This document shows, in pieces, positions 4,481 through 37,318 of a stretch of DNA of 37,419 bases. Each line of letters begins with the position of its first letter. Position 1 is the stretch's first letter. The stretch comes from a virus. The translations under genes and the position numbers were made by a program. The stretch is from UHGV virus genome UHGV-0125336; one strand, given 5' to 3'. The notes below the pieces were generated by a model. It had not been told where the DNA came from. It did not search any database and saw nothing but the letters and a program-made list of their open reading frames with translations.

Positions 4481-4502
4481 AACCGCGCCAGCGGTTTTTT
4501 TG
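4481..4502 (+). terminator. Candidate intrinsic terminator inside the early operon
   Basis: AACCGC-GCCA-GCGGTT hairpin followed by a T7 run, within the 320-bp non-coding gap 4359..4680. Confidence 0.4.
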
Positions 4503-11507: not shown

Positions 11508-12554
11508 TCAGGATGTGGGCTGGGTGTCTAACAGTGCGTAAGGGTTAAAGCGGATCACCTCTTCGCCAAGCCAGTCATTGATGTGCTTCATGGCCTCCAT
11601 GACGGGCATCAGCTCGTTAATTGCGTAAACCCGCGCGGCCTTCTCCACATCACCAAACGCACTTTTTTCGCCCGGCATCGCCCCCATCAGTTGCGGCGGA
11701 ACGCGGTGCGCAGCCAGCACATCATCACGGGATGCCGCCTTAACATTCATGAACTCATCCTTTGCGGTGATCTGCTGGAACGGCAAAATTTGCACCCCCT
11801 CTTTGCCCCCGTTAGGCGCATGAATGAGCACGTTTTTAAACGCACCACCACCACGTGCCCCCTGTAGCGTTTCTTTCAGGGAGTCCATGCTTTCGCGGTT
11901 TACCTGCGCTGCACCGATGTAGATGATGCACCCGGCGTGGGATCCATTGTCGTAATACAGTTTTCTGAACATGTCCGCCGAATGAGACAGGCTGGCCGAG
12001 AGTAATGCGCCGAGATATTCCGGCATGCCGTAGATTTCCTGGTTAATGTCAGGATTCATCAGGTGGCACACTTTGCCAGGGCGAAACTGAAACGCGTCCT
12101 TGCCATCCTGCACATACCACCATGATTCAAGATCGCTTCCGCGTCGCATGTATTTCGCCAGGGCGTGCCGTAATTTAAGCGGTTCGCCGAGCATATTGCT
12201 TCGAAGCTCAAGGAATGCGTTACCGAACACAAACCAGTCCAGCGCCAGCGCCGAGAAATCCTGCCGGGAAAGCAACGGGTGCGGGATGTAGCAACCGAGT
12301 AATACATTGCGCTTAAAGTAAAGCGCAGACTGATGCCAGGACGTTTGCCGGGCAGCTCTTGCCAGACCGTACCAGTCCACCGGGGTTTCATACCACCGCC
12401 CGTTATCAGCACAGTACATATTGTCCAGCAGGTCATGCCCGGTCAGGCGATAAGGACCATCAAATGTGAATGCACTGAGCGATGATTCTTTCCTGAGCGC
12501 ATCAGCGAGATCAATGCGTGAACTCATGCGCACTTTTTTATTTTTTCTGCTCAT
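11508..12554 (-). CDS. Q: Portal protein, P2 gpQ-like
   Basis: 348-aa ORF with P2-typical position and orientation (Q and P leftward, divergent from O). Confidence 0.85.
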   Translation of the reverse strand: MSRKNKKVRMSSRIDLADALRKESSLSAFTFDGPYRLTGHDLLDNMYCADNGRWYETPVDWYGLARAARQTSWHQSALYFKRNVLLGCYIPHPLLSRQDFSALALDWFVFGNAFLELRSNMLGEPLKLRHALAKYMRRGSDLESWWYVQDGKDAFQFRPGKVCHLMNPDINQEIYGMPEYLGALLSASLSHSADMFRKLYYDNGSHAGCIIYIGAAQVNRESMDSLKETLQGARGGGAFKNVLIHAPNGGKEGVQILPFQQITAKDEFMNVKAASRDDVLAAHRVPPQLMGAMPGEKSAFGDVEKAARVYAINELMPVMEAMKHINDWLGEEVIRFNPYALLDTQPTS

Positions 12555-14305
12555 CAGAACTCCATAACCGTGAAACGCTCGTTTTCTCCTTCGCCGCCAA
12601 TCGGTTCGTTAATGACAGCAAGCATGGTTGCCCACGCAAGGTCGCCGTGGCTGATCCCCCTCGCACGGTCCGTTTCGTAAGTGATAAAGCCGCCCGGTGT
12701 TTTCACCTTACGCACGGCGTTAAAGGCCGCGACCAGCTCGCGTTCGGCGCGATCGTATTCCCACCGCCCGGCACGCATTATTTGCAGCATTTTCAGTACC
12801 AGCGACCGTTTTGATGACAGCGTGAAGGTGTACGGAATAGCGGCAGGGAAAAACCGTTTCACTATCTGATAAACAGCCTCCCCGTTCCCGCCCGTCACAT
12901 CAATGCCGATGTGTTCCACGTTGTAGCGACACGTGAACTCTTCAATGACTCTGGCCTGTTCTTCAAACTCCAGCCCCTGAACGCGTCGCGTCTCCACCGT
13001 TCGAAAACGGCCACCAGGAACAGCCGGAGGAACCACCACGGATACAGCGCCGCTGTCGCCGTTGCCACTGCTGCCGTTTGCGTCATATCCAATCCATACC
13101 GGACGATTTCCCATCGGGCGGGGAGCAAAAGGTTTCCAGTCTTTCCAGTCGTCGTATCCGTCAACACCGCAGCCAATCAGGATATTCAGGTTAAATGCCG
13201 ATTCCCCTTCGCGGACAAACTCACACATATAGAGATTGAGGAACTCGTCTTCGGTGTTTTCATCACGAATTTCGTCGATATCGGTGTGTTCCCAGCCGTG
13301 ATTAACCACATCTTCCAGCGTGACAATTTGCCGCCACGTCCGGTCAGGGCAGATAAGCCCGTTATGCAGCGTTTTCCAGTCCACAGAAAAACGCTGGCGT
13401 TTATGCGTGGCCTTTTTCTCGTTCCAGCGGTCGCCGTTCCAGTAGGCGTATGCCTCGTGCGTTTCGGTGGATGGCGTGGAGAAGTAGGTGCGCCGCAGTC
13501 CGCTGAGGGTTGCCATAGCGCCAGCCACTTTGCGCAGTTCAGCAAAGCGACTGACCCAGAAAAATTCATCAAAATAAAAATTGCCCGTATAGGACTGTGC
13601 CGACGCAGCAGAAGTGCCGAGAAAATGCAGCTCTGCGCCGTTGGAGAGGATGATTTTATCGCCCCCTTTCAGCTCCACATCAACTTCAGCCGCGGCCTTC
13701 TGAATAATGCTTTTAAACTGGAACGCCTGACGACGCGACGCAGACAAAAAAATCTGGTTACGCTGGTAAGGTTGCGCCACATCGTCACGCAGCGCCATCA
13801 GCAGCGCTTCCTGTGCAAAATACCAGGTCGCCCCAATCTGTCGGGATTTCAGGATCATCCTGTTACGTATCCCTGCTTCCCTGCAAAGGGTCAGGGAGTC
13901 AAACCAGCCCCGCTGATGCCACTCCAGCCTGCTGATGATTTTTTCCCGCAGTGCGGCAATCTGTTCCGGCGTGAAATGATTTTTAAGCTTTTTCGCCCGG
14001 CCTTTCTTTCCTGTGGCCGTCGCATCCGGCTGGCCATCATGCAGTTTTTTAAGCTGCCGGGTCAGCAGGTCTATTTCCTTGAAGTCACCACCTGTTTTAT
14101 TCTGTTTTTCAGTGAGCTGGATGAGGCGCGCATCGATGGACTGCGTGACACGCTGCACGGGTGGCGTTTCATCCCACTGGTCGCGTTTTTTCCACGCATA
14201 AATCGTGTTCGGGTTTATTCCCATCAGACGTGATATTTCTGCGGGCGGATAACCCTGCCAGTAAAGTTGCCGCGCACGCTGGCGCACAAAAGCGTCCTGA
14301 ATCAT
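12554..14305 (-). CDS. P: Terminase large (ATPase) subunit, P2 gpP-like
   Basis: 583-aa ORF immediately upstream of Q on the same strand. Confidence 0.9.
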   Translation of the reverse strand: MIQDAFVRQRARQLYWQGYPPAEISRLMGINPNTIYAWKKRDQWDETPPVQRVTQSIDARLIQLTEKQNKTGGDFKEIDLLTRQLKKLHDGQPDATATGKKGRAKKLKNHFTPEQIAALREKIISRLEWHQRGWFDSLTLCREAGIRNRMILKSRQIGATWYFAQEALLMALRDDVAQPYQRNQIFLSASRRQAFQFKSIIQKAAAEVDVELKGGDKIILSNGAELHFLGTSAASAQSYTGNFYFDEFFWVSRFAELRKVAGAMATLSGLRRTYFSTPSTETHEAYAYWNGDRWNEKKATHKRQRFSVDWKTLHNGLICPDRTWRQIVTLEDVVNHGWEHTDIDEIRDENTEDEFLNLYMCEFVREGESAFNLNILIGCGVDGYDDWKDWKPFAPRPMGNRPVWIGYDANGSSGNGDSGAVSVVVPPAVPGGRFRTVETRRVQGLEFEEQARVIEEFTCRYNVEHIGIDVTGGNGEAVYQIVKRFFPAAIPYTFTLSSKRSLVLKMLQIMRAGRWEYDRAERELVAAFNAVRKVKTPGGFITYETDRARGISHGDLAWATMLAVINEPIGGEGENERFTVMEF

Positions 14306-22934: not shown

Positions 22935-25781
22935 ATGAAATATGGTGCCATTATCACAGCGGCTGGCGCTGCCAGGCTTGCTGCAGCCACAACAGCAACA
23001 GGCCAGAAGCTGAACATCACTCACATGGCCGTGGGAGATGGTAATGGAAATCTCCCGGAACCATCGGCCTCACAGACCGCCCTGAACAATGAAGTCTGGC
23101 GCGGGACGCTGAATAAAATTACACAGAACAGCAAAGCGCCAAATCAGGTGATTGCGGAACTGGTTATTCCTCCGGAAGTTGGCGGCTTCTGGATGCGGGA
23201 GCTGGGGTTGTATGACGACAGCGGAACCCTGATTGCCGTCGCCAATATGGCAGAAAGCTACAAGCCGTTACTCGCCGAAGGTTCGGGGCGCTCAATGGTC
23301 TGCCGCATGTTCATCATCATCAGCGATATGAACGCGGTGAATCTGTCAGTGGACAGCAGCGTCATTGCCGCAACACAGGAATATGTTAACGAAGCCATCT
23401 CCGGCCTGCACCGCGCCATCATTGATGATGTGGTTCTTCAGCATAAAGTTGTCCACGATATTGACTACACCGGGATTTTTGACGGCGCGGATAAGATGAG
23501 CCAGGGGTTCTGTATCTGTGATACGCCGCAGGGAACCCGAATGTTTCTGCATCAGCCTGTATCGGGTGGCGTAAGGATTGTTGAAACGACATTTAACCCT
23601 GACGGAGAAAACGAAAACCCGACGGTCATTTCGTTTTCTCCCGTTTTCGCTGATATTGGTCACCAGAGTATCGGGGCCGTATGTGAAGACGGTCGCGTGA
23701 TGCTGTATACCCCGACCGCTGACGGCAAGGGTGTGAATATCATCAACTGGAATGGGGCTGACACCAGTCTGACAGATGTCACCCGTACGGAGATTTTCAC
23801 CTCTGACTTTTTTACCGGGGATGAAATTATAACGGTGGCATTGTCGGTAGACGGAAGCCTGTTGATTGTTCAGTCAAGTAATGAAGCCGTCCATCTTCAT
23901 TACAACAGGGATGACCGCCGCACAGTTTATGTTTTCGATCGCGCTTCTCTGACGTTTAAACACCGGATTTATCTGTCCACCCAGTCAATGGTGTCGCAGG
24001 CATTTCAGGGGATGGCCAGCGATGGTCATTATCTGTTTGCTTATTACGGTTATACAGGCGTATTTCTGACTCACCGCATTGTTGTATATAACCTGTCAAC
24101 GGGCGAAGTTGTCAGACAGTTCAATGTGGATGGCGTTCGTGCCAGGTATGGCCGCCAGAAAATGCTGGGGAATGCAGAGCTGGGGTATCCCGTTTTGCAG
24201 GAAGCCGAAGGGCTGGCTCTTCATAACGGAAAACTGTATCTGCTCGATATGGATTTCTGGTGTCAGACAGCCGATGTGGTTTCTTTTGAGGGGGCATACT
24301 TTGCAGCACGTGCAACAAATTTTTCTGGCCGTTCCCCGGTGAATCCATCTTACTGGACGCCTACAGCATATGGAACGGCGGCTGCAACGAAATATGATGC
24401 CACGAAGTCTTATACGTGTGGCGTGGCGACAAAACGCAGCAAAGCTGTGGTTTCCGTGGAGGCTTACGACGGCACAGGCTATCTGGTGGACTCCGGCGTG
24501 GCGTTTCCTGACAGCCATGCCAGCCTTTTTCTGAGTCCCAATGCTGTAAATATAGCCCTGTCACCCAATGAAGACTTCCAGGTGGCAGCCTATGAGCAGA
24601 ATCTGCGCTCGCATCGCCCGTTATTTGAGGTCAGAAAGGAGGCTCCGGATACAGACACTTCTGCTGCTGTTTTTCGTTTGTACGGGGATGCGTTCCGAAC
24701 CGGAGAATACACAGGCCGCTTCGTTCAGTGGAAACACCGACTGAACGCCGTGCACGATTGTCTGGAAATACGCGCTGACGTGGATTTGTTGAGCGGTGGC
24801 GGAATTAACCTTTACTCAATGAACGATACTCAGTCGGCGGGACGCACAAGGCTTTATTGCACCGATGGCAGTGAGACCTGGTCTGTATTATTGAGTCCGG
24901 TCTCGCCGTCATTTCATCCCGACCAGGACAAGGCAATGAATCTGGGGTCATCGCCAAATCGCTGGAATGTGGCATACCTGCAGGGCGTGAATATTAAATC
25001 GGATGACGAAACCCAGAAGCGCATGGCCATCAGCACCACGCTGAAGGCGGGAGCTTTCCAGGTATCAACAGCCGGGAATCTGGGTATTTATGACGATTCT
25101 GCTGACGCTTATGTAATTGCAGCCCGTAGTGACGGCACTGCATTCATGCAGATGGATACAGATATTAACGGTGCATTCCGGCCATCGGTTAACAATACCA
25201 GCGACCTGGGTGCGCCCAACAAAGCGTTCCGGAGCGTGTATCTCTGCAACTCGCCGACCGTTGTGTCGGATGCGACGTTAAAGGATACACCGCGCGATGC
25301 GACAACAGCCGAAAACGCGGCATTTGCAGAAATAGCACGACTTCCGGGCGTGTGGCGCTGGTTACAGAGAATTGAGGAGGAGGGCGAGGACGCGCGTCTG
25401 CACGCCGGGCCGACAGTCCAGGCCGCGATAGCGGTGATGGAGAAACACGGTCTGGACTGGCGGAAATACAGCGCATTTTGTCTGGATTCGTGGGAAGCGG
25501 AGGAGGCACAGTACGAAGATATGCCGGAAGAGTATGAAGATATTCCGGTTCAGCCTGCGATTTATTCGGATGAAGGGGAGCTGTTGAGCGGGACAACCCG
25601 TGTGCTTACCCGACAGGCGGAAAGGGTTCTTGTTCGCCCTGCAACCGAAGCAGGAAGCCGTTATCGCTTCCGGAAAGAGGAGCTTCTCTGGTGGTGTCTG
25701 CGTGCTGTTGTCAGCCAGGTGGATGCGCTGACAGAGAGCATCAGCGCACTTACCCGCCGTGTTGATTTACTGGAGGAATAA
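22935..25781 (+). CDS. H: Tail fibre, P2 gpH-like N-terminus with divergent receptor-binding region and C-terminal intramolecular-chaperone-like domain
   Basis: N-terminal 150 aa conserved gpH anchor. C-terminal 170 aa begin at SDATLKD (25263-25286) and show the auto-cleaving chaperone pattern (..VWRW.., ..GPTVQAAIAVMEKHG.., terminal coiled coil). Confidence 0.85.
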   Translation: MKYGAIITAAGAARLAAATTATGQKLNITHMAVGDGNGNLPEPSASQTALNNEVWRGTLNKITQNSKAPNQVIAELVIPPEVGGFWMRELGLYDDSGTLIAVANMAESYKPLLAEGSGRSMVCRMFIIISDMNAVNLSVDSSVIAATQEYVNEAISGLHRAIIDDVVLQHKVVHDIDYTGIFDGADKMSQGFCICDTPQGTRMFLHQPVSGGVRIVETTFNPDGENENPTVISFSPVFADIGHQSIGAVCEDGRVMLYTPTADGKGVNIINWNGADTSLTDVTRTEIFTSDFFTGDEIITVALSVDGSLLIVQSSNEAVHLHYNRDDRRTVYVFDRASLTFKHRIYLSTQSMVSQAFQGMASDGHYLFAYYGYTGVFLTHRIVVYNLSTGEVVRQFNVDGVRARYGRQKMLGNAELGYPVLQEAEGLALHNGKLYLLDMDFWCQTADVVSFEGAYFAARATNFSGRSPVNPSYWTPTAYGTAAATKYDATKSYTCGVATKRSKAVVSVEAYDGTGYLVDSGVAFPDSHASLFLSPNAVNIALSPNEDFQVAAYEQNLRSHRPLFEVRKEAPDTDTSAAVFRLYGDAFRTGEYTGRFVQWKHRLNAVHDCLEIRADVDLLSGGGINLYSMNDTQSAGRTRLYCTDGSETWSVLLSPVSPSFHPDQDKAMNLGSSPNRWNVAYLQGVNIKSDDETQKRMAISTTLKAGAFQVSTAGNLGIYDDSADAYVIAARSDGTAFMQMDTDINGAFRPSVNNTSDLGAPNKAFRSVYLCNSPTVVSDATLKDTPRDATTAENAAFAEIARLPGVWRWLQRIEEEGEDARLHAGPTVQAAIAVMEKHGLDWRKYSAFCLDSWEAEEAQYEDMPEEYEDIPVQPAIYSDEGELLSGTTRVLTRQAERVLVRPATEAGSRYRFRKEELLWWCLRAVVSQVDALTESISALTRRVDLLEE

Positions 25782-25783
25782 TT

Positions 25784-26068
25784 ATGGACTTAACCCCGGT
25801 GTTCCATGCACTTTGTGCGGTGGCCACTCAGTTTCTGGTAGGTCTTTTTACCGGAAACTGGGCTTACGGAGCGATAGCCGGTTGTACGTTCTTCATTGCG
25901 CGTGAACACACCCAGGCAGAATATCGCTGGATTGAAATGTTCGGGCATGGCAGGCGTATGAATATGCCGTGGTGGGGCGGTTTTGACCCACGCGCGTGGG
26001 ATATGGCAAGTCTGATGGATTTTGCAGTGCCGGTGGTGGCATGTCTGCTGGTCTGGCTGGTCGTATGA
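25784..26068 (+). CDS. Small two-TM membrane protein in the position normally held by gpG
   Basis: 94-aa ORF starting 2 nt after the H stop. Two hydrophobic segments. Not gpG-like. Confidence 0.5.
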   Translation: MDLTPVFHALCAVATQFLVGLFTGNWAYGAIAGCTFFIAREHTQAEYRWIEMFGHGRRMNMPWWGGFDPRAWDMASLMDFAVPVVACLLVWLVV

Positions 26069-26080
26069 CGTAGCAGGAAA

Positions 26081-26105
26081 CAGGGGGATTTGCCCCTGTT
26101 TTTTT
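26081..26105 (+). terminator. Intrinsic terminator of the H operon
   Basis: CAGGGG-GATTTG-CCCCTG hairpin followed by a T7 run. Confidence 0.55.
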
Positions 26106-26222
26106 GTTCAGAATGCAGCCTTCACCATTCGTCTCTAATCGTATTCAGTAATTCGCCCGCAGAAACAAACTAAAATTCATCCCCCACATCACGCCACTGA
26201 AAGCAGACGGTAAACTCCAGAT
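26106..26222 (-). pseudogene. Degenerate remnant of a gpU 3' end
   Basis: About 75-80% identical by eye to 26888..27010 (the intact U 3' end) in the same orientation. Reading frame preserved at the stop (RMVKAAF* versus KMATAAF*), but an in-frame TAG lies upstream. Confidence 0.6.
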
Positions 26223-26525
26223 TTTCAAACCAGCGTCAGAAGTATTTAAATGGCACCAGATGTAATATGCAGGCGATTAATATGGTGTGCTTAAAGATCA
26301 TAAAAGCGGGCAACATTAAAACTCCGGGCTGTGTAAATTACCGCCACTCATAATCAGAGATGAAAACAGAATTAAACTGGCGGCGTGGATTGTATACATA
26401 AAATAAGTTCAGTTGTTGACTTTCACTTCCGTGAGTTGATGAAGGTTATTACAATACACCGGTATGATCTCTCCTCCTTAAAAGGGAGGACTTTTCAGAA
26501 CGCAGAAATTATTTATAATCCCGTA

Positions 26526-26576
26526 GTGTTCTACACATGCCAACATTCTTTGCCCGCCCCGTGCGGGCTTTTTTTT
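26526..26576 (+). ncRNA. Candidate small RNA 1 (about 50 nt)
   Basis: Weak promoter (TTTTCA-N16-TATAAT, -10 at 26514-26519) upstream of a strong terminator (GCCCGC-CCCGT-GCGGGC plus T8, 26552-26576). No convincing ORF. Confidence 0.25.
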
Positions 26577-26666
26577 GCCATAAAGACACAGTAACAAACA
26601 GAATTGTAATCAGAGCAATAAAATCATGAAAAACATTTTCATTGATGACGATAACAATTAAAAATA

Positions 26667-26696
26667 TTGCATTAAATGATTCCCGTTCAATATAAT
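26667..26696 (+). promoter_or_regulatory. Sigma70-like promoter (TTGCAT-N18-TATAAT)
   Basis: -35 TTGCAT at 26667-26672 and -10 TATAAT at 26691-26696. Drives the short transcript ending at the 26740-26763 terminator. Confidence 0.45.
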
Positions 26697-26703
26697 CCCC
26701 CTG

Positions 26704-26763
26704 CAACCAGAAAAATTAAATCTTCACACAATGCATGTTGCCCTCTTTATGAGGGCTTTTTTA
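26704..26763 (+). ncRNA. Candidate small RNA 2 (about 60 nt)
   Basis: Between the TTGCAT/TATAAT promoter and the terminator GCCCTC-TTTAT-GAGGGC plus T6. No ORF. Shares a CACA-ATGC-TTGCCC motif with candidate 1. Confidence 0.35.
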
Positions 26764-26854
26764 TTTCCCGAATATCACCATTGCCATCATCGGGCGATTT
26801 ATATATAGTCAGAATGTATTGACAACATTTTGCTTCTTTTCCATGAAGGCCATA

Positions 26855-26886
26855 AGGGAGTGCTTTTTACACTCCCTCTTTTTTTA
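26855..26886 (+). terminator. Intrinsic terminator abutting the U stop codon
   Basis: AGGGAGTG-CTTTTTA-CACTCCCT followed by a T8 run. Plus-strand oriented. Confidence 0.6.
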
Positions 26887-26887
26887 T

Positions 26888-27352
26888 TCAGAATGCCGCT
26901 GTCGCCATTTTGTCTTTAAGCGTGTTCAGTAATTCGCCCGCAGAAGCAGACTGAAACCTCTCCCTCATATCCTCATCACACCGCTGAAAGCTGATGGAGA
27001 ACTCAATCTTTTTTGCCTTTCCGTAACGATCCAGTTCGGAGCGGGTGGTCTGTAATCCCGTAATCACGTACATTCCGTAAATCTGCCCCGTGCCATCAAT
27101 CAGCGGCCAGGGACATCCTGTGTAGGCCTGGGTGTTCAGTAGTGTCAGCGACACCTCACCGCCGGTAATTTCCGGGTACAGCAAACCGGACAGCGTGATC
27201 TGGTCATCACCTGCGCCGATATACTGCCAGGCCGCAGAGCGGTTAATGCGCTCATTTTTCACATGTCGCCATGTTTTGCTCTGCTGGATCTGCTGATGTG
27301 GCAGCGTGCGCAGCTCAAAAACAAACATGCCGTAGATCATCATCATGGTCAT
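26888..27352 (-). CDS. U: Tail protein, P2 gpU-like
   Basis: ...ITLSGLLYPEITGGEVSL...IDGTG... parallels recalled gpU (...VTLSGTLYPELTGGRLSL...IEGTG...). Confidence 0.85.
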   Translation of the reverse strand: MTMMMIYGMFVFELRTLPHQQIQQSKTWRHVKNERINRSAAWQYIGAGDDQITLSGLLYPEITGGEVSLTLLNTQAYTGCPWPLIDGTGQIYGMYVITGLQTTRSELDRYGKAKKIEFSISFQRCDEDMRERFQSASAGELLNTLKDKMATAAF

Positions 27353-27358
27353 GACTCC

Positions 27359-30199
27359 TCAATCTTTATCGTAAAAACTGCCACGCCCGACACGGGCGCG
27401 CCGTTCCATTTCTGCCCTGACCATTTCACCGACCAGTTTCGCCAGTTCGCGGGGATTCTGCGTAACAACGTTATGCAGATGAACATGAATTTCACCACCA
27501 AATCCGGAGGCAACAGGCTCCCGGTTACGGGAAGTTACAGGAACTGATGCCACTGGAGATCGTATGGCCTCCGCCACCGGGCGGGAGCTGGCCGCAACAA
27601 CAGGGACCAGCGCCGGAGGCAGCGGAGCCGGGACCACGGGTGTGATATTAATTGCGGGGGGCTTACTGACCTGCGCAATCTTCCGCTCCTGCCACTCCCC
27701 ACGAACGGCAAGTGCGCGGGGCAGGTTCTTAAAGACAATATCACCGGGGCCAATGCGTTTTTTCGTCTCATCAACCAGCTTACCTGTGTTATCAGCAATT
27801 TTGCTGAGTCTGCGCAGCGTACCGGTATTGCTGTCTGTGAGTGGTTTATTGTCTTTGGGTTTATCACCTCCCGTGCCATTGCCATTTTCCACAGGCTTCG
27901 GCGGATTGATTTTCGCCAGGTCCCCCTGAAGCAAGGCAACCTTGTCCTGAAGAATGGCCGCACGCTGTGCGTCTTCGATTTTCTTGCGCGCCCTTTCCGC
28001 TTCATCCGGAAGGACGCCAAGTTTTTCAAGTATCCACGCCAGCGTATCCAGCAACATTTTTGCAGGCGTCAGAACAAGCTGTAGCGCGCCACCAAGAGCG
28101 TTACCGAATATCTCGCCAGCACTGGTACATTTATCCAGCGTTTCCTTGCTGGACTCCATCGGTGACAGCAGCGATTTAAACCAGTTAAACACCTGGCTGA
28201 TCCCGCTTCCGATTGCGTCAAAAACAGGACCAAACCGTTCAAAGGTTTCACGCAACGGGTTCAGCCTTTCCATAATCCCGCTGAACACCCCGGCAAAAAA
28301 TGCCCTGATGGGATCCCAGTATTTCCAGATAAGAACGGCAGCTCCGGCAAGCGCAGCCACGATAAGACCAACCGGACTGAACAGCGCCCCGATAGCGCCT
28401 CCCAGCAAAGAAACGGAACCCGTCACCATTCCCCACAGCGCAGGCAACACCCTGACGACATTCATTGACCGGGTAAGAATGTCAAAACCAAGACGCAGGG
28501 TGGCCAGCTTCCCGTAAAGCACCCCAATAACCAGCGACAACGAGCCAATCGTTGCAGTCATTGCCAGCAACGCACCGCCTGCTATCAGTAGCTGGCGCGT
28601 CAGTACCGGATGGGCCTGCGCCAGCGAGGTGATTTTTTCAAGCACCCGCGTGAGCCACTGCGTGACAGAACGCAGCGGACCGTCAACCAGATCACTGATG
28701 CGAATACGAAGACCTTCCCATGCGCTGTCGAGATTTTTCAGGTCCCCATCAAGATTATCGGCCATTACTTTTGCAACGCGATCGGCCTCTCCCCTTGCCC
28801 CCTGCAATTCTCTGGTCAGTTTTTGCAGCTCTCCTGAACCAGCCGCCGCAACAAGCGTCTGCAAACCAACGAACGCCTCTTCTCCGGCGATGTCCTTGAA
28901 GAAGGAGACCTGGTCCACCTGTCCGTATTTTTGTGTCGCCTTATAGAGATCAAGCAGCACATCCTCCATCGGGCGCATTTTGCCTCTGGCGTCAGCAACT
29001 GACACCCCCAGCTCTTTCAGCGCATCAGCCGCAGCTTTTGGCGGTGATGCAAGGCGGGACAGACTTGCGCGCATGGCCGTACCAGCATCGCTTCCACGAA
29101 GACCATTATTGGCAAGCATCCCGGCCATGGCTGCCGCTTCTTCAAGACTGATACCAAGTTTTGCGGCAACCGGACCGGTATACTTCATGGTTTCGCCCAG
29201 CGCGCGTAAATCAGTATTGGTCCGGGTGAATGCCGCTGTCAGCGTATCGCCAACCCGGTCCATTTGATCGGCTGTCAGGTTGAACTGTGTGAGGATATTG
29301 GAGCCTATATCCGCCGTCTCGCCGAGTTCGACGCCACCTGCCAGCGCCATATTAAGAACACCGGGCAATGCGGCCTGAATGGCCTGCGGAGTAAAACCAG
29401 CCATTGCCAGAAAGCTCTGCCCACTGGCGGCATCACTCGCAGTAAACTGTGTTTCAGAACCAAGTTTTAACGCCTGCTCACGCAGCGCCTTAAACTGCGG
29501 GCTGTTTTTGTCGATTCGCGTCAGTGCCTGAACGCGGGACATCTCTTTGCCGAACCCGATCGCAGGCTGCAAAAAACGCCCGGAAGCATAGCCGCCAGCC
29601 GCTGCAGCACCAATTGCCAGCGCACCACCTGTTTTCAGTTTTCCCGCGGTTTCCTGCGCGCGCGAATACCGCTCACGCGCCCGCGTTACACGCGCAAGCG
29701 CCTGCCGTTCGCGTTCAAGCTGGTTGTTGTACTGTTCGGTGCGTCTGATGGCCTGCTGGATTGTGTTATCGCTGCCTGTCAGGGAAATGCCGTGGCGTTT
29801 CAGCTCTCCGCCAAGTTCCCGCATTTTCTGAATTTCCCGTGTGCGCGATTCATTCAGGCGTTCAAGCCGGGTGCTTAACTGCTGCATCAGCTTTTGTTGT
29901 TTTTCGCTGAGCACTGTACCCGTGCGTTGTAACTGATTAAGGGCGTTAAGCTGGCGTCGTGCTTTCACGATGCCAGCATCCGCTTTACTGACAGCGTCGC
30001 GGGCGCGCTCAAATGATCGCGCCTGACGCTCGAGATTTTTGATCGCCCCCTGCGTTCGCTGGATGGAGTCACCAAACTGCCCCATCAGGCGGCGGGCGTT
30101 TTCGGCAGGCCGGGTCAGCCTGTCAACGGCGCTGAAAGCGACCCGGATATCAAGAGTCTTCATTGTCTGCATTCCCGCTGCGAAGTGCCGCCCGCTCAC
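27359..30199 (-). CDS. T: Tail tape-measure protein, P2 gpT-like
   Basis: 946-aa ORF, helix-rich with Ala/Gly-rich hydrophobic central segments, between E/E' and U. Confidence 0.85.
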   Translation of the reverse strand: MSGRHFAAGMQTMKTLDIRVAFSAVDRLTRPAENARRLMGQFGDSIQRTQGAIKNLERQARSFERARDAVSKADAGIVKARRQLNALNQLQRTGTVLSEKQQKLMQQLSTRLERLNESRTREIQKMRELGGELKRHGISLTGSDNTIQQAIRRTEQYNNQLERERQALARVTRARERYSRAQETAGKLKTGGALAIGAAAAGGYASGRFLQPAIGFGKEMSRVQALTRIDKNSPQFKALREQALKLGSETQFTASDAASGQSFLAMAGFTPQAIQAALPGVLNMALAGGVELGETADIGSNILTQFNLTADQMDRVGDTLTAAFTRTNTDLRALGETMKYTGPVAAKLGISLEEAAAMAGMLANNGLRGSDAGTAMRASLSRLASPPKAAADALKELGVSVADARGKMRPMEDVLLDLYKATQKYGQVDQVSFFKDIAGEEAFVGLQTLVAAAGSGELQKLTRELQGARGEADRVAKVMADNLDGDLKNLDSAWEGLRIRISDLVDGPLRSVTQWLTRVLEKITSLAQAHPVLTRQLLIAGGALLAMTATIGSLSLVIGVLYGKLATLRLGFDILTRSMNVVRVLPALWGMVTGSVSLLGGAIGALFSPVGLIVAALAGAAVLIWKYWDPIRAFFAGVFSGIMERLNPLRETFERFGPVFDAIGSGISQVFNWFKSLLSPMESSKETLDKCTSAGEIFGNALGGALQLVLTPAKMLLDTLAWILEKLGVLPDEAERARKKIEDAQRAAILQDKVALLQGDLAKINPPKPVENGNGTGGDKPKDNKPLTDSNTGTLRRLSKIADNTGKLVDETKKRIGPGDIVFKNLPRALAVRGEWQERKIAQVSKPPAINITPVVPAPLPPALVPVVAASSRPVAEAIRSPVASVPVTSRNREPVASGFGGEIHVHLHNVVTQNPRELAKLVGEMVRAEMERRARVGRGSFYDKD

Positions 30200-30733: not shown

Positions 30734-31246
30734 TCAGCCAAGCCCGAGCGCGGAACGGATGCGATCGGGCACAATGTCCTTGCCGTCCTTCCGGTAAATG
30801 AAGTTCAGCAGGTCAATCTCCCACAACGGGCGATCGTTAACACTCAGCTTGTAGTAGGTGTTTTTAATGGCGTAAGTGTGTGATGTGGCTTCGCCCTGTT
30901 TGGCTTCCCCCATATCAATTTCCGTCACACGTCCGCGCATTTCGACTTCATACAGGTCGCTTTCTGCATCGGTGTAGTATTCACCCGCAAAACGCAGCAG
31001 CGTGCCGTCAATCGTGCCGCCATACTTAAGGAACAGCTCACGAACTGCGCCCCCCATGACAAAGCTCGCATCAAGCGCGGAGTCGTCCAGACCGAGATCA
31101 ATACTTACCGCACCCATCATGCCACCACCCCGGTAGCTGTCGGTTTTGCGCGTCAGCTTAGGCAGAGTGACGGACGTCACCTTACCCACTTCGTTTTCAC
31201 CATCCACAAACAGCGTAAAAAAGCGAAGATGTTTTGGTACAGCCAT
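30734..31246 (-). CDS. FII: Tail tube protein, P2 gpFII-like
   Basis: 170-aa ORF immediately downstream of the sheath gene on the same strand. Confidence 0.85.
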   Translation of the reverse strand: MAVPKHLRFFTLFVDGENEVGKVTSVTLPKLTRKTDSYRGGGMMGAVSIDLGLDDSALDASFVMGGAVRELFLKYGGTIDGTLLRFAGEYYTDAESDLYEVEMRGRVTEIDMGEAKQGEATSHTYAIKNTYYKLSVNDRPLWEIDLLNFIYRKDGKDIVPDRIRSALGLG

Positions 31247-32430
31247 CAGGCACCTCCCAGCACCGCAAATGCGGGACCAAAGAATTCATCAGTAAACGAC
31301 TGGTAAAGCTCCATGTCTTCCAGCGGGGGAACAGGCGTATATTTGTAGCGAATACGCACGCGCCCCTGACGTAAATTCGTGGTGCCGTTATCCACCACGT
31401 CATACCAGCACGACGCCCCAATCAGTTTCCCGGCAGTAACCAGTGAATCCAGTTTTGCCCTGATGGCACTGATAACATCTTTCACGTTCGCAGGCGTCAG
31501 TGGACTGTCGATGGTTTCAAACTGCGCTTCCGCAATTGAATCAGCCAGCACCTGTGCGGTTCGGGTATACACCTCAAAGATGTAGGCGTTCGTTTCCGGT
31601 GTGCGGTTGCCCCAGAAGCGGAACCCGTTGCGACGAATAATGGTCGTGATTTCTTTGTTGTTGAGGCTGTTGGCATCACTGTCTTCGGCCTGCAACGACC
31701 AGAACACATGCCTGGACATCCCCAGCACATTTTTAACCGGAACGTTGGACAGCGATTTGTGCCAGCCCTGCTCATGGTCAATGTACGCACGAAGGCCGCA
31801 CGCATAGGCAGGCGCGGGGAACGTTTCGTTTTTGCCACTTTTCGGGTTGTAGGCGATGAAGTCCGGCCATAAGAGCATCACCTCACGTTCGTTGAATTTC
31901 TGGCGGTAGGTAATCGCCTCAGCCATCGTGTTACAGCCGTGACATGAGGCATACACAAACGCGCGCAGTTTACCCGCAATCACGCACAGGGATTTTGTTA
32001 CCGCCTCCGTGTCCAGCTCCGGCGCGGCCAGAATACGCGGACGGTATCCGATGCTTTCATCCTGCTCTGCAACAAGCAGCGCATACATCCCCGTATAGCT
32101 GCCGTCAGATTCAGAACCACCGATAACCAGTTGATCCTGCGTTTTTCCGTCTTCTTCTTTGTGTTCAGCCACGCGAACGACGATCACCTTTGTGCTCACC
32201 TGGTCTGCGATGGCCTTAAGCGCACGATAAAGCGTCCCCGTTGTTCCGCATTTTCCCAGCACGTCATTGACGCGGGTCAGCAGTGTGGGCTTGTTCAGCG
32301 GGAACAGCTCCGCATCCGCATCATCCGCCGTTGCCACGATACCGATAACACTGGAATCAACATCGTTAATCGCTGTTACCAGGTCGGTATTTTCCGTAAC
32401 ACGGGCACCATGAAAACGAGTTTCACTCAT
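31246..32430 (-). CDS. FI: Tail sheath protein, P2 gpFI-like
   Basis: ...DADAELFPLNKP...RAF.Y......EA..YRQ.F..RE.M..WPDF.A....EQGWHK(T/S)LSNV...FWGNRT...YTRTAQV...YTPVPPLE... matches recalled gpFI. Confidence 0.9.
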   Translation of the reverse strand: MSETRFHGARVTENTDLVTAINDVDSSVIGIVATADDADAELFPLNKPTLLTRVNDVLGKCGTTGTLYRALKAIADQVSTKVIVVRVAEHKEEDGKTQDQLVIGGSESDGSYTGMYALLVAEQDESIGYRPRILAAPELDTEAVTKSLCVIAGKLRAFVYASCHGCNTMAEAITYRQKFNEREVMLLWPDFIAYNPKSGKNETFPAPAYACGLRAYIDHEQGWHKSLSNVPVKNVLGMSRHVFWSLQAEDSDANSLNNKEITTIIRRNGFRFWGNRTPETNAYIFEVYTRTAQVLADSIAEAQFETIDSPLTPANVKDVISAIRAKLDSLVTAGKLIGASCWYDVVDNGTTNLRQGRVRIRYKYTPVPPLEDMELYQSFTDEFFGPAFAVLGGA

Positions 32431-32586
32431 AGCTTCAGCCCCTTGTATCCGTTAAATGATTCGGCAACAATCATCACCCACCACGCGCGTAATCTCACCC
32501 CTGCGCCGTTCTCCCGCCACGGCGACAACAAAAAGCAGTAACCCCCTACGCACGCACATGCGACCATGCCGCACAGGGAGGGAACA

Positions 32587-33697
32587 GATGACCGATACCA
32601 CCATGCAATTGCTCAGTCAGAGCACAGACCCCGTGAAAATGCCGGATTTTGATATTCTCGCGGAGGGGGAAACACTGTCCGGCGTGGCAGAGCGCCTGAT
32701 GAGCCTGTCACTGACCGACAACCGGGGATTTGAAGCGGACCAGCTCACCATCACGCTGGATGATGCGGATGGTCAGTTGCAGCTACCGCCACGGGGCGCG
32801 CGCCTGACGGTTCTCATTGGCTGGAAAGGAGAACCGCTGACAGAAAAAGGCACTTACATTGTTGATGAAATCGCACACGAAGGACCGCCGGACAGGCTGA
32901 CTGTTTCAGCCAGAAGCGCAGATTTTCGGGATGAATTTAACGTTAAACGTGAGGTGTCCTGGCATGATGTGACCGTTGAGCGCGTGGTATCCGCCATCGC
33001 TCATCGGTACGGTCTGAAACCACAAATCAGCGAAATGCTGATGGATATTGAAATCGACCACGCCGACCAGACCGAAGAAAGCGACATGTCCTTCCTTACG
33101 CGCATGGCGGAAATGCTGGGCGCAATCACTACGGTAAAAAGCGGTAATCTGTTATTCATCATGCCAGGCGGTGGCGTGAACGCACAAGGCCAGCCGTTGC
33201 CCTCGTTCGCCATCACGCGCAGCAGTGGCGATCGCCATCAGTTCCGCATTGCTGACCGCGAAGCGTATACGGGGGTACGCGCTTACTGGCTTGATCTTAA
33301 TTACGGGAAAAAGAAAAAAGTCAGCGTGAAACGCCGCAAACCGCCAAAACCCAAAAAGGAGAAAAGCAGCAGCCGTGAAGGTGATTATATGGAAGGCGCG
33401 GAAGGCAATGTGTTTGTGTTACGCAAGGCTTATCAGAACGAGCAGGCAGCAAGACGCGCAGCGGCGGCAAAGTGGCAGCAGCTACAACGCGGAGCCGCAT
33501 CATTTTCCATCACGCTGGCGCGTGGACGTGCAGAACTCTACCCCGAAATGCATGGCACGGTAACAGGATTTAAAAGCGAGATTGATAATCAGGACTGGAT
33601 TATTGCGAAAGCCGAGCACACCATTGATAACAGCGGCTTTACCACGCAGCTTGAGCTTGAAGCAAAAATCCCGGAATGGATAGCAGAAACAGAGTGA
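32587..33697 (+). CDS. D: Tail/late protein, P2 gpD-like
   Basis: ...LAEGETLSGVAERLMSLSLTDNRG.EADQL.I.L.D.DG.L.LP.RGARLTVLIGW.GE.LT... matches recalled gpD. Start at 32587 after an AGGGAGG RBS. On the opposite strand to FI. Confidence 0.85.
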
Positions 33698-33739: not shown

Positions 33740-34000
33740 ATGTTCCGTTGTCCGCTTTGTGGCGCATCTGCCCGTATCCGCACCAGTCGTTCGGAAAATG
33801 ATTCAAACACCGTACGGAAAAAATATTACCAGTGTAACAACCTGGAATGCGGCATAAGTTTCTCAACACTGGAAGCTTTCCATAAATTCACATCGAAACA
33901 CGCCCCCGGCGTTCACTCTTCAGAAGGTATCCCGTGGCATGAGTTGCCAGCTTCACACAGGGGAAACAATCAGATGAGTTTGCCTTTACCTCAGAATTAA
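33740..34000 (+). CDS. ogr: Ogr/Delta-family zinc-finger late-gene activator
   Basis: MFRCPLCG...YYQCNNLEC: a CxxC...CxxxxC zinc finger at the N-terminus as in P2 Ogr (MFHCPLC...YHQCQNVNC as recalled). Longer C-terminal tail than P2 Ogr. Confidence 0.75.
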   Translation: MFRCPLCGASARIRTSRSENDSNTVRKKYYQCNNLECGISFSTLEAFHKFTSKHAPGVHSSEGIPWHELPASHRGNNQMSLPLPQN

Positions 34001-34740: not shown

Positions 34741-35574
34741 ATGGTCATGAATAATAAGCTAAAGGTAATTGAGTTAAATAGTCTTGATCTGTTTCGTAAA
34801 GAATTACTAACTACTATAAAGCCAGAGAAAGTAGAGAAATTACTTAGATGGTATCTTCAATCATATGGCGGTGTTAATTTCAAGTTCGGTTATGACAGAC
34901 CAATTTTTAGAGCGCGAAAGTGCCCAAATGAATGCGGATATAATAACATCAGTGAGATATATCCCCCTCCACCAGAAAAATGTAAAATAGGCCGAATGAA
35001 TGATGATGGACAAGCTATCTTCTATGGCGCTTATAGTATCGGAACAGCTTTAGCCGAAATTAATGCAAAAGAAGGGGATTATGTTCACATAGCTCACTTT
35101 AAGATGCCGGAAAATTCAGAGTCTGGAATGCGATGTTTTGCTATCGGTGAGGTCTTTAATGTGTATCACGGTGTAAATACAATTTCAATTGAAGTGTTTA
35201 ATGAAATTCGCGACATCATTAGCAGAATTGGTAAGGACGACATCCGAGCTTTGCTATCATATTTGTATATGGATGCCCTTTCTGCTGAGTTGCTTAATAG
35301 TATCAATGCCCATGAGGTAAATTATATTTACTCAAGAATTTTTTGCCGTCTTCTTCTTGATAAATACCCTGATGTTGATGGTCTTATTTATCCTAGCGCT
35401 AAAATAAAAGGGGCCTCAAATATCGCTTTGCGCACAGAAACAGTTAAATCGAGAATGCATTTAGTTGCTAATCTTGTGTTTAAAGTAAATAAAATTTATC
35501 CATATGGAATAGTAGATTTCAGTATAGTAAAACAAGCCAAAGGACATACATCAGATGGGCGCATCGTTTGGTGA
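34741..35574 (+). CDS. RES-domain-like protein (putative NAD+-targeting toxin fold) with an N-terminal extension
   Basis: KIGRMNDDGQAIFYGAYSIGTALAEI fits the RES pattern (G-R-W/M-N..G...Y.A.S...A..E), and DGLIYPSAKIKGASNIAL fits the second conserved block. No adjacent Xre/antitoxin-like ORF. AT-rich. Confidence 0.5.
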   Translation: MVMNNKLKVIELNSLDLFRKELLTTIKPEKVEKLLRWYLQSYGGVNFKFGYDRPIFRARKCPNECGYNNISEIYPPPPEKCKIGRMNDDGQAIFYGAYSIGTALAEINAKEGDYVHIAHFKMPENSESGMRCFAIGEVFNVYHGVNTISIEVFNEIRDIISRIGKDDIRALLSYLYMDALSAELLNSINAHEVNYIYSRIFCRLLLDKYPDVDGLIYPSAKIKGASNIALRTETVKSRMHLVANLVFKVNKIYPYGIVDFSIVKQAKGHTSDGRIVW

Positions 35575-36087: not shown

Positions 36088-36420
36088 ATGGCATTAATCA
36101 AATGTCCTGAATGCCAGAAAGAGGTCAGCGATTCAGCATTATGTTGCCCTGCTTGTGGTAAACAACTGAAAAAACTTAAGCGTTCATTTTTTGGAAAACT
36201 CATTAAATGGGCTTTTATATTTTTTAATATTTTTATGATCTATACACTTTTAGTTGGACTAGGAGGCGCTGATGAAATAATAAACAATACCACATCCGAT
36301 GCCGAAAAAGCTGGGGCAGTTATTGGTACGGGCTTAGGTTTAATTGCCATTGGAGGCTTATGGGTTATTGGCGATATAATTATCGGAATTTTAGTGTTTC
36401 TTACTAAACCAAAGGGATAA
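36088..36420 (+). CDS. Zinc-ribbon membrane protein, unknown function
   Basis: N-terminal CPEC...CPAC zinc ribbon followed by two hydrophobic helices. AAGGAG RBS. AT-rich. Confidence 0.6.
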   Translation: MALIKCPECQKEVSDSALCCPACGKQLKKLKRSFFGKLIKWAFIFFNIFMIYTLLVGLGGADEIINNTTSDAEKAGAVIGTGLGLIAIGGLWVIGDIIIGILVFLTKPKG

Positions 36421-36424
36421 TAAA

Positions 36425-37318
36425 ATGAAAAATATGATTTTTTCTATAGGTGCATTATTTATATCAATTAGTGTACTGCCTGTTCACGCAGCAACTGAAC
36501 ATAAGAATTTCAATGCAGTGCTCCAGTGCCGAGCGATAGAAAACAATAAAGACAGACTTTCTTGTTACGATAAGTCAATACAACCGACTCGAACGAAAGT
36601 TGCTGAAAAATTTGAAAGCAGGGATCAATGCCCTGATGAGAAAGATGATGACAAACGTTTATCTTGTTATGATCGTTTTTTTTCTCCAACATTTACTCCA
36701 TCTGTAAACTCAAAATCTAAAACGGAAAAGCTAGTAACAACAGAGGCTCAGCAACCAAATCTTTCTGAAATATCTAAATGCCGAGCAGAAAATGATAAAG
36801 AAGCCAGACTAAACTGCTACGATAAACTATTCCCACAGAATGAAGCTGTTCAATCTGAATCACAATTAGAGAAAGCCACAGATGCAGGAAAATGGCACAC
36901 GTCCATTACTACATCGCCAATTGATGATTCGAAAAATGTAATTTTATCGTTAGAAAGTGATGATTATATCAGAACTCCATTTGGAGAAGCTGTTACTCCC
37001 ACTCTGTTTATAGCTTGCCGAGAAAAGAAAACCGAAGTATTTCTTAGTTGGGATGTATATTTAGGCCTTGAACAAACCAGCATGCTGTATCGTCTTGATA
37101 AACAGAAAGCAGTTGAAAGAAACTGGCTAATATCTACAGATACAAAGGCTGTTTTTTATAAAGGTAATGATATTGATTTCATAAGAAAACTTGCCAACTC
37201 ACATAAAATGTACACAAAAATAACCCCCTATAATGAAAGCCCTGTAAGTGCAACTTTCAATTTAAGCGGCCTGTCAAATGCACTAAAACCGCTTCAAGAT
37301 GCTTGTAACTGGAAATAG
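36425..37318 (+). CDS. Secreted protein with three 20-aa Cys-pair repeats, unknown function
   Basis: Signal-peptide-like N-terminus (MKNMIFSIGALFISISVLPVHAA). Repeats LQCRAIENNKDRLSCYDK, DQCPDEKDDDKRLSCYDR, SKCRAENDKEARLNCYDK. Starts 4 nt after the upstream gene. Confidence 0.6.
   Translation: MKNMIFSIGALFISISVLPVHAATEHKNFNAVLQCRAIENNKDRLSCYDKSIQPTRTKVAEKFESRDQCPDEKDDDKRLSCYDRFFSPTFTPSVNSKSKTEKLVTTEAQQPNLSEISKCRAENDKEARLNCYDKLFPQNEAVQSESQLEKATDAGKWHTSITTSPIDDSKNVILSLESDDYIRTPFGEAVTPTLFIACREKKTEVFLSWDVYLGLEQTSMLYRLDKQKAVERNWLISTDTKAVFYKGNDIDFIRKLANSHKMYTKITPYNESPVSATFNLSGLSNALKPLQDACNWK

What the first reader, a model, noticed from the sequence alone, without database searches (positions are those of the whole stretch)
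26106..27010. Diverged partial duplicate of the U gene 3' end bracketing the moron
26106-26222 is about 75-80% identical to the real U 3' end (26888-27010) in the same orientation and already contains a premature stop. The divergence argues against a recent duplication and for recombination between two different P2-like genomes at the conserved U terminus, which would have placed the 26223-26887 cassette there. This records how cargo is exchanged at this hot spot.
Basis: seen in the sequence. Interest (0 to 1): 0.5.

Follow-up and report, generated by a model that had tools for sequence, protein, structure and literature searches.

The report
Old recombination scar beside tail gene U
A decayed second copy of the last 40 codons of the prophage tail gene U is real; it is a non-functional scar of an old illegitimate recombination that swapped the phage's receptor-binding fibre module, which is an ordinary kind of phage mosaic joint.

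Summary
The duplicate is real. Window 26094-26225 matches 26874-27012 in direct orientation (75.5% over 139 columns, E=1.7e-22; best of 200 shuffles 31 bits against 96).

Copy A (26106-26225, minus sense) is a dead fragment of GpU codons about 114 to the stop. It carries a TAG, a 6-nt deletion and a 1-nt frameshift.

The bracketed 'cassette' is not imported cargo:
- 26223-26508 is the decayed 3' end of a tail-fibre gene H plus an internally deleted tail-fibre-assembly gene (Tfa), both plus sense.
- 26509-26887 is the native Tfa-U intergenic region.

Relatives L010 and E. coli strain 135 carry intact H-Tfa, the same intergenic DNA and a convergent U, with no duplicate.

The same U//H junction (about 3 nt of microhomology) occurs in lineages diverged at dS 0.2-0.4. 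So it was one old illegitimate join. It put a chaperone-containing fibre, orf94, a terminator and a U 3' end in front of a resident H-Tfa-U layout.

Most divergence between the copies is neutral decay after the event, not evidence for very different parents. No donor genome was found.

Side lead: parts of the intergenic DNA are far more conserved than synonymous sites. It holds three promoter-plus-terminator units that may be small RNAs.

The parts
22935..25781 (+). H*: tail fibre. It has a conserved tail-collar N-terminus and a C-terminal Peptidase_S74 intramolecular chaperone, so it needs no separate Tfa. This is the incoming receptor-binding module.
   Evidence: PF12571 E=3.6e-54 and PF13884 E=1.9e-09. 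RefSeq annotates it as a 'phage tail-collar fiber domain-containing protein'.
25784..26068 (+). orf94: a small protein of unknown function that travels with the fibre module.
   Evidence: phrog_1443, E=1.9e-55, function unknown; no Pfam hit. Copies about 90% identical sit in many lambdoid prophages. Homology with those copies ends at its last codons.
26069..26105 (.). A-tract, hairpin and T-tract: an intrinsic terminator. It ends the H*-orf94 transcript. Its 3' arm and T-run are homologous to the terminator after the real U, so it came in together with the U fragment.
   Evidence: Terminator scan. Fold -17.4 kcal/mol, z=-4.6. Repeat D2, 26094-26129 vs 26874-26909, 83%.
26106..26225 (-). Delta-U': dead copy of the last 40 or so codons of a GpU gene plus its stop. 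It carries a TAG at 26170-26172 (plus-strand CTA), a 6-nt deletion and a 1-nt frameshift near 26128.
   Evidence: RefSeq annotates nothing here.
26223..26281 (+). Delta-H: remnant of the last 18 or so codons and the stop of a classical P2/Mu-type tail-fibre gene. It abuts Delta-U' with about 3 nt of overlap.
   Evidence: Translation QKYLNGTRCNMQAI aligns with QKYINGTWYNVASV*. Nucleotide alignment to the L007 H end. About 80% identity to the H|Tfa junction in hundreds of E. coli prophages and in P2 and SfMu.
26282..26508 (+). Delta-Tfa: tail-fibre-assembly pseudogene. It keeps the first 14-24 codons, has lost codons about 25-137, and keeps a degenerate C-terminal part with an in-frame stop.
   Evidence: MVCLKIIKAGNIKT aligns with MMHLKNIKAGNAKT. 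IRDENRIKLAAWIVYIK*VQLLTFTSVS aligns with Tfa residues 138-165 of L147. Longer decayed versions exist in L005 and L003; the L003 piece hits PF02413 Caudo_TAP at E=6e-08.
26509..26887 (+). Native Tfa-U intergenic region: AT-rich and non-coding, with three promoter-like plus terminator units. Predicted RNAs are about 26526-26577, 26703-26762 and 26816-26887.
   Evidence: Terminators at 26552-77, 26740-62 and 26855-87, and promoter-like sites. Present between intact Tfa and U in L010 and L147. Mean pairwise difference is 0.03 in 26721-26815 and 0.06 in unit 1, against 0.138 at U third codon positions. No Rfam family. No protein family.
26888..27352 (-). U: the intact resident tail gene GpU. Its 3' end, 26888-27012, is copy B.
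   Evidence: PF06995 E=9.5e-40. RefSeq 'phage tail protein' WP_001546053.1.

Best explanation
The window is a P88-like (Xuanwuvirus, P2-family) prophage of E. coli.

In this group the fibre genes (plus strand) converge on the tail operon FI-FII-E-T-U (minus strand). The usual layout is H, Tfa, a short spacer, then the end of U.

Copy A is the relic of one old illegitimate recombination between two related genomes of this group.
- One parent contributed everything to the left: a fibre with its own intramolecular chaperone (H*), orf94, a bidirectional terminator and its U gene up to about codon 114.
- The other parent contributed everything to the right: its H from 18 codons before the stop, then Tfa, the spacer and its complete U.

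The hybrid therefore kept one whole U and one orphan U 3' end. It gained a new receptor-binding module. It was left with a useless H tip and Tfa, which have since decayed by point mutations and deletions.

Shown: the homology of each relic, the abutting joint, its presence in diverged lineages, the existence of the duplicate-free layout, and the neutral rate of decay.

Inferred: that the event was a single crossover between two genomes (co-infecting, or tandem prophages), and that the relic has no function beyond the terminator next to it.
For: 1. Each piece is identified by homology.
   - Delta-U' matches U at E=1.7e-22 and aligns at protein level.
   - The H-end and Tfa-start remnants and the Tfa C-terminal remnant are also identified.

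2. The joint is direct. U homology ends at 26225 and H homology starts at 26223. In the least-decayed locus L005 the overlap is 3492-3497.

3. The same joint is present in the L003, L004, L005, L011, L012, L148, L149 and L152 lineages. Their U genes differ from the window's at dS 0.23-0.30. This points to one event, and an old one.

4. The relics show a decay series. Tfa is nearly full length with stops in L005, shorter in L003 and L004, and shortest in the window.

5. The layout without the scar exists. L010 (IMG/VR) and L147 (E. coli strain 135) have intact H, an intact 187-aa Tfa, the same 379-nt spacer and a convergent U, and no second U piece.

6. Across 52 species-representative loci, U is faced by a convergent Tfa or by an invertase, and none has a second U end. 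The duplicate is therefore a derived oddity.

7. Relic divergence is neutral-like. It is 0.31-0.35 between lineages for Delta-U' and for the Tfa remnant, at or above U synonymous divergence.

8. H* carries a Peptidase_S74 chaperone domain. This explains why Tfa became dispensable.
Against: - No extant 'left parent' was found, meaning an orf94-like gene followed directly by an intact U.
   - IMG/VR relatives of orf94 are lambdoid.
   - The relic-specific motif FQWCDEDMW hits only the relics themselves.
   - A chimeric orf94-plus-U probe found no place covering at least 80% of the query in 5,426 complete E. coli genomes.
- The 3' tail of the relic and the adjacent terminator differ between the window type and the L003 type. 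At least one further exchange must therefore have occurred on the left side.
- The 3' part of the L004 Tfa remnant is 97.6% identical to the functional Tfa of L010. This shows later recombination that blurs the history.
- The data cannot separate a one-step crossover between two genomes from a tandem duplication followed by replacement of the left copy.
Confidence: 0.68

Rival explanations
1. A tandem duplication arose inside one genome, covering the segment from the H tip to U codon 114. This would create the same U//H joint. A later homologous exchange then replaced the left copy (H-Tfa-spacer) with the H*-orf94-terminator module, using the orphan U end as the right-hand homology arm.
For: - A tandem duplication gives exactly this kind of joint.
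- The relic belongs to the same short-tailed U family as the resident gene. After allowing for neutral decay, little pre-existing divergence remains to be explained.
- The window and L003 types differ in the distal part of the relic and in the terminator. This is what crossovers inside the relic would produce.
Against: - It needs two or more steps where one suffices.
- No genome has two copies of the spacer in tandem. The one record with two places has them apart, and its locus is the ordinary type.
- The replacement step still requires a donor with a fibre module directly abutting U. That is the same unobserved genome the main model needs.
Confidence: 0.17
2. The relic is kept because it does something. 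It could serve as a homology handle that lets fibre cassettes be swapped repeatedly. It could also act as an antisense element, because read-through of H*-orf94 would give RNA partly complementary to the 3' end of U mRNA.
For: - The relic has persisted through lineages diverged at dS 0.2-0.4.
- The fibre modules to its left differ between lineages.
- A perfectly identical stretch of about 22 nt is shared with U in the window.
Against: - It evolves at or above the synonymous rate: 0.33 between lineages.
- It accumulates stops, frameshifts and deletions that differ between lineages.
- The 22-nt identical core is not conserved in the L003 type.
- A strong terminator sits upstream of it.
- For: recombinant junctions mapped inside the relic in experimental crosses.
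Confidence: 0.08
3. Homologous recombination at the conserved U terminus between two clearly different P2-like phages inserted a 26223-26887 moron cassette.
For: - Two direct repeats bracket an AT-rich segment with GC 0.34-0.41, against about 0.52-0.56 in the flanks.
- The segment contains promoter-like and terminator-like sites.
Against: - The joint is U//H, not U//U.
- The segment is made of H and Tfa remnants plus the native spacer, which is also present in duplicate-free relatives.
- It has no conserved ORF and no protein family.
- The relic is of the same U family as the resident gene.
Confidence: 0.05
4. The similarity is due to chance or low sequence complexity.
For: None. Only the T-run is of low complexity.
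Against: E=1.7e-22. The observed score is 96 bits against a maximum of 31 bits in 200 shuffles. Protein-level colinearity supports homology.
Confidence: 0

Closest known systems
Novel joints made by illegitimate recombination in mosaic phage genomes
   Same: - The boundary is abrupt and does not respect gene ends.
- Microhomology is minimal (about 3 nt).
- Gene fragments are left behind and then decay.
- The surviving product keeps a full set of essential genes.
   Different: - Both sides of the joint can still be recognised.
- The pre-event layout survives in relatives.
- The joint produced a partial direct duplication of a tail gene end, not a clean module boundary.
Escherichia phage P88 (Xuanwuvirus P88, NC_026014) and relatives
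   Same: - The overall genome plan is the same. The fibre genes converge on T-U, and the T and U genes are about 91% identical from window position 26960 onward.
   Different: - P88 has H, Tfa, an inverted alternative Tfa'-H' segment and a DNA invertase in front of U.
- Its U has a longer, different C-terminal tail.
- It has no spacer units and no U relic.
Morons and cargo hot spots of P2-like phages, such as Z/fun after gene G (from my own knowledge)
   Same: - The position is the same: immediately after the fibre and assembly genes.
- The DNA is AT-rich, with its own promoter-like and terminator-like signals.
   Different: - No protein-coding gene is present.
- More than 40% of the bracketed segment is pseudogene debris.
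- The remainder is conserved non-coding DNA found only in this E. coli lineage.
Truncated tail-fibre and Tfa pseudogenes of cryptic prophages
   Same: Orphan H-end and Tfa fragments persist after the receptor-binding module has been exchanged.
   Different: Here the relics lie inside an otherwise complete-looking prophage, next to an orphan piece of a non-fibre gene (U).

Membership tests
GpU (Pfam PF06995) gene | Sequence homology to GpU | tested here: met
   Copy A aligns with the 3' 120 nt of the resident GpU gene (E=1.7e-22) and with residues 114-148. The resident gene hits PF06995 at E=9.5e-40. Copy A covers only the part after the Pfam domain (profile residues 8-127).
GpU (Pfam PF06995) gene | Complete open reading frame | tested here: not met
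   Only about 40 codons remain. They carry an in-frame TAG, a 2-codon deletion and a frameshift. It is a pseudogene fragment, not a gene.
Moron (an extra transcription unit between genes that are adjacent in relatives) | Absent from relatives in which the flanking genes are adjacent | tested here: inconclusive
   The left 285 nt are H and Tfa debris, not an insert. The right 380 nt are present in all 72 E. coli genomes of this lineage, including those without the duplicate. They are absent from the Tfa-U gaps of other species.
Moron (an extra transcription unit between genes that are adjacent in relatives) | Own promoter and terminator | tested here: inconclusive
   Three plus-strand intrinsic terminators and matching promoter-like hexamers are found. 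In the whole 25700-27100 scan, 5 terminator-like sites were found against 1.1 expected. These are consensus matches only, with no expression data.
Moron (an extra transcription unit between genes that are adjacent in relatives) | Encodes a protein | tested here: not met
   No ORF is conserved across lineages, because indels break the frames. PHROG gave no significant hit, best E=0.061. RefSeq annotates nothing here.
Moron (an extra transcription unit between genes that are adjacent in relatives) | Deviant base composition | tested here: met
   GC is 0.34-0.41 across 26100-26900, against about 0.52-0.56 on both sides.
Known RNA families (Rfam 15) | Match at or near the gathering score | tested here: not met
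   The best hit in 25700-27100 scores 22.7 bits against a gathering score of 50, E=0.24, and aligns only through the terminator hairpin.
Illegitimate-recombination joint | Two unrelated sequences abut with no or minimal homology, and each continues into its own homologous context | tested here: met
   U homology runs to 26225 and H homology starts at 26223. The same holds in L005, with overlap at 3492-3497.
Illegitimate-recombination joint | The parental arrangements are observable | tested here: inconclusive
   The right-hand parent layout was found twice (L010, L147). The left-hand parent layout was not found.

The most novel reading that the evidence does not exclude
The right-hand 380 nt of the bracketed segment (26509-26887) is a lineage-specific non-coding 'moron'. 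It would carry up to three undescribed prophage small RNAs of about 50-70 nt. Each has a promoter-like site and an intrinsic terminator, and all are transcribed towards the end of the tail operon. Units 1 and 2 look like paralogues: both have TATAATCCC...CACA(A)TGC...TTGCCC-stem-T-run, with a compensatory change in the stem (GCCCGC/GCGGGC vs GCCCTC/GAGGGC). Blocks of this DNA are held at a mean pairwise difference of 0.03, against 0.138 at third codon positions of the neighbouring U gene.
Probability: 0.35. Interest if true: 0.45.

Novelty: new member of a known kind. Interest (0 to 1): 0.27.

Why it matters
This is a clean, datable example of how a P2-family prophage changes its receptor-binding module. 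Both halves of an illegitimate joint are still legible. A natural 'before' state survives in relatives, and there is a graded series of decay of the displaced H and Tfa genes.

It also corrects the annotation picture. The 780 nt between orf94 and U, left blank in RefSeq, is 40% pseudogene debris and 50% conserved non-coding DNA.

For practical work such as phage host-range engineering and prophage typing in ST131 and other E. coli, it shows that a fibre with an intramolecular chaperone can replace an H-Tfa pair in this phage group.

It does not reveal a new mechanism.

Tried and rejected
**Search for the left-hand parent (orf94-like gene directly followed by an intact U): all negative.**
- orf94 relatives in IMG/VR: the best 80 of 395 are lambdoid, apart from the window type itself.
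- A degenerate DNA pattern for the relic-specific peptide FQWCDEDMW in IMG/VR hit only the relics.
- tblastn of a reconstructed relic peptide against 50,697 phage records gave a best identity of 51%, in Enterobacter phage phiT5282H. Nothing was closer than the resident U.
- A chimeric 300-nt probe (orf94 3' end plus U body) against 5,426 E. coli genomes found no place covering at least 80% of the query.

**Wider scans.**
- The spacer word TTAAATCTTCACACAATGCATG in one genome per species (185,579 species) gave 0 hits.
- A spacer word in metagenome contigs gave 4 hits, all of already known types.

**Other checks.**
- A second U end was looked for in 52 U-bearing loci from other species. None was found.
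- Rfam found no family in the region. PHROG scans of the small ORFs inside the segment found nothing significant.
- Complementarity of the predicted small RNAs to the rest of the prophage gave only 10-11-nt matches, as expected by chance.
- The one genome with two spacer copies was checked for a tandem intermediate. Its locus is the ordinary type.

**Rejected ideas.**
- I first read the H|Tfa remnant as minus sense, because the phage hits were on the minus strand of their records. Translation shows it is plus sense.
- I considered that the segment is a decayed invertase region like that of P88. There is no similarity.

Full report
**Context**

The window is a complete-looking P2-family prophage of E. 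coli. The 3-kb stretch 25000-28000 is 100% identical to the chromosome of strain SCU-176, and at least 99% identical in 38 complete genomes, ST131 among them.

Its genes include:
- integrase at 240-1259
- GpA at 5356-8178
- portal and terminase at 11508-14305
- sheath at 31246-32430 (minus strand)
- GpD at 32456-33697
- Ogr at 33740-34000

The nearest named phages are P88 and other Xuanwuvirus. They match at about 91%, but only from position 26960 rightwards, which covers U and T.

In this group the fibre genes on the plus strand converge on the tail operon FI-FII-E-T-U on the minus strand.

**The observation**

Copy A (26094-26225) and copy B (26874-27012) are direct repeats. blastn gives 75.5% identity over 139 columns, E=1.7e-22, 96 bits. 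Dinucleotide shuffles of copy A never exceed 31 bits against the window. Ungapped blocks reach 79% and 83%.

Copy B is the 3' end of the intact GpU gene at 26888-27352 (PF06995).

Copy A, read on the minus strand, aligns with U residues 114-148. It carries an in-frame TAG (plus-strand CTA at 26170-26172), a two-codon deletion and a 1-nt frameshift before the last codons.

The homology continues past the stop codon into the T-run and one arm of the terminator hairpin. The fragment therefore arrived together with the terminator that now follows orf94 (26069-26105; -17.4 kcal/mol, z=-4.6).

**What lies between the copies**

The segment is not a cassette of cargo.

- *Tail-fibre and Tfa debris.* Immediately to the right of copy A, on the plus strand, lies the remnant of the last 18 or so codons of a classical tail-fibre gene. 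The remnant reads QKYLNGTRCNMQAI, against QKYINGTWYNVASV*. It is followed by its stop and the first codons of a tail-fibre-assembly gene: MVCLKIIKAGNIKT against MMHLKNIKAGNAKT. This H|Tfa junction matches hundreds of E. coli prophages, P2 and SfMu at about 80%.
- *Internal deletion.* After a deletion of Tfa codons about 25-137, the C-terminal part reappears at 26353-26436 with an in-frame stop. It fades out near 26508, where the Tfa stop lies in relatives.
- *The remainder.* 26509-26887 is non-coding.

**The joint**

U homology ends at 26225 and H homology begins at 26223, an overlap of TTT. In L005, the least-decayed relative, the overlap is 3492-3497. This is an illegitimate joint between U codon about 114 and H codon -18. 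It is not an exchange within shared homology.

**Relatives**

- *Same joint, diverged lineages.* The same orf94-like gene, terminator, Delta-U', Delta-H, Delta-Tfa, spacer and U arrangement, with the same joint, occurs in clearly diverged lineages: L003, L004, L005, L148 and the metagenomic or viral contigs L011, L012, L149, L152. Their U genes differ from the window's at dS 0.23-0.30, and their fibre genes are different.
- *A decay series.* The Tfa relic is almost full length but riddled with stops in L005, shorter in L003 and L004, and shortest in the window.
- *The layout without the scar.* Two relatives show it: IMG/VR contig L010 and E. coli strain 135 (L147). Both have an intact H, an intact 187-aa Tfa, the same 379-nt spacer and a convergent U, with no second U piece.
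- *Other species.* In 52 loci from one genome per species, U is faced by a convergent Tfa (most loci) or by an invertase (as in P88). No locus has a second U end.
- *Frequency.* Among 5,426 complete E. coli genomes the spacer occurs in 72, always at this position. Sixty-seven of them carry the window-type relic at 99% or more.

**History inferred**

The simplest account is one illegitimate crossover between two related genomes, either co-infecting or present as tandem prophages.

- The left parent supplied H* (with a Peptidase_S74 intramolecular chaperone), orf94, the terminator and its U down to codon about 114.
- The right parent supplied the tip of H, Tfa, the spacer and a whole U.

The hybrid had a new receptor-binding module and no further use for Tfa, which then decayed.

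The left parent's layout was not found in any collection. A tandem duplication followed by replacement of the left copy would give the same end state and cannot be excluded.

Later exchanges certainly happened:
- The distal tail of the relic and the terminator differ between the window and L003 types.
- The 3' part of the L004 Tfa remnant is 97.6% identical to the functional Tfa of L010.
- The window's orf94 is closer to lambdoid copies (93%) than to the L003-type gene (80%).

**Age and the meaning of the divergence**

- The relics of the two lineages differ from each other by 0.33.
- Each differs from the E. coli short-tailed U family by 0.25-0.31.
- Each differs from P88, Salmonella or Citrobacter U by 0.46-0.57.
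- The Tfa remnant shows the same 0.31-0.34 between lineages. Both values are at or above the synonymous divergence of U.

A three-point split of the distances gives about 0.165 to each relic and 0.115 to U. Most of the difference between copies A and B is therefore neutral decay after the event. The donor U was a close relative of the resident one.

The inference of 'two different genomes, hence divergent copies' does not follow from the divergence. It rests instead on the two different fibre modules that were brought together.

**Function**

Nothing suggests that the relic does anything.
- It evolves neutrally.
- Its lesions differ between lineages.
- Its 22-nt perfect match to U is not conserved in the L003 type.
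- It lies behind a strong terminator.

**The spacer (a side finding)**

26509-26887 is AT-rich (GC 0.34-0.39) and has no conserved ORF or protein family. It contains three plus-strand intrinsic terminators, each preceded by promoter-like hexamers:
- TTTTCA-16-TATAAT
- TTGCAT-18-TATAAT, which I read by eye from the sequence
- TTGCCA-17-TATAGT

These would give RNAs of roughly 52, 60 and 72 nt (folds).

Conservation across ten distinct sequences is patchy. Mean pairwise difference is 0.026-0.033 in 26721-26815 and 0.061 in unit 1. It is 0.135-0.285 in the stretches between. For comparison, third codon positions of U show 0.138 and second positions 0.012.

One compensatory change supports the third hairpin: GGGAGTC...GACTCCC in L003.

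No Rfam family matches. The sequence is absent from other species' Tfa-U gaps and from the species-representative genomes. No target inside the prophage stood out.

Small RNAs are a reasonable guess but are untested.

**Verdict**

- The feature is an ordinary, if unusually legible, phage mosaic joint.

Noticed in passing
window 26509-26887: This non-coding Tfa-U spacer has three promoter-like plus terminator units. Blocks of it are conserved far above synonymous sites (mean pairwise difference 0.03 vs 0.138). Units 1 and 2 look paralogous. It has no Rfam match and occurs only in 72 of 5,426 E. coli genomes, always at this position. These may be prophage small RNAs.
   Followed up: partly
window 4427-4624: Rfam finds isrK (4427-4501, 64 bits) and the C4 antisense RNA (4537-4624, 83 bits) side by side. 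This is the P1/P7-type immunity RNA pair, here in the early region of a P2-family prophage.
   Followed up: no
window 26888-26960: The last 24 or so codons of U form a mosaic boundary. Similarity to P88-type phages starts only at 26960. P88, Salmonella and Citrobacter U proteins have a longer, different C-terminal tail (...KDKVTSSLNSAASSVKGLF), against ...KDKMATAAF here.
   Followed up: partly
window 25784-26068: orf94 (phrog_1443, function unknown, hydrophobic) is shared at about 90-93% with many lambdoid prophages. There it sits at the very end of the fibre region or the predicted prophage. Homology stops at its last three codons.
   Followed up: partly
L006 3344-3884 (E. coli H1827/12), also L008 and L009: This is a defective derivative of the same prophage. 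A deletion joins a truncated gene that RefSeq annotates as an incomplete 'oxidoreductase' (probably the terminase gene, by its position next to the portal gene) directly to the terminator after orf94. Head, lysis, baseplate and fibre genes are removed, but the U relic, spacer and tail operon are kept. It is present in about 9 complete genomes at about 94% identity.
   Followed up: partly
window 8255-9214: A ParM/StbA-type actin-like segregation protein (PF06406, E=3.6e-82) is encoded just after the replication gene A. This is unusual cargo for an integrated P2-family prophage.
   Followed up: no
window 34741-35574 and 36088-37318: Downstream of ogr lies a RES-domain protein (PF08808), which may be a toxin of a toxin-antitoxin pair. 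It is followed by a zinc-ribbon protein and a VasI-family type VI secretion protein. These are probably the prophage end and host flank.
   Followed up: no
L010 4881-5460 and L147 2934-3497: The functional Tfa of the duplicate-free relatives is itself chimeric. Its N-terminal half (MNNFKNFTSY...) is unrelated to the MMHLKNIK-type start preserved in the relics, while its C-terminal third matches them.
   Followed up: partly
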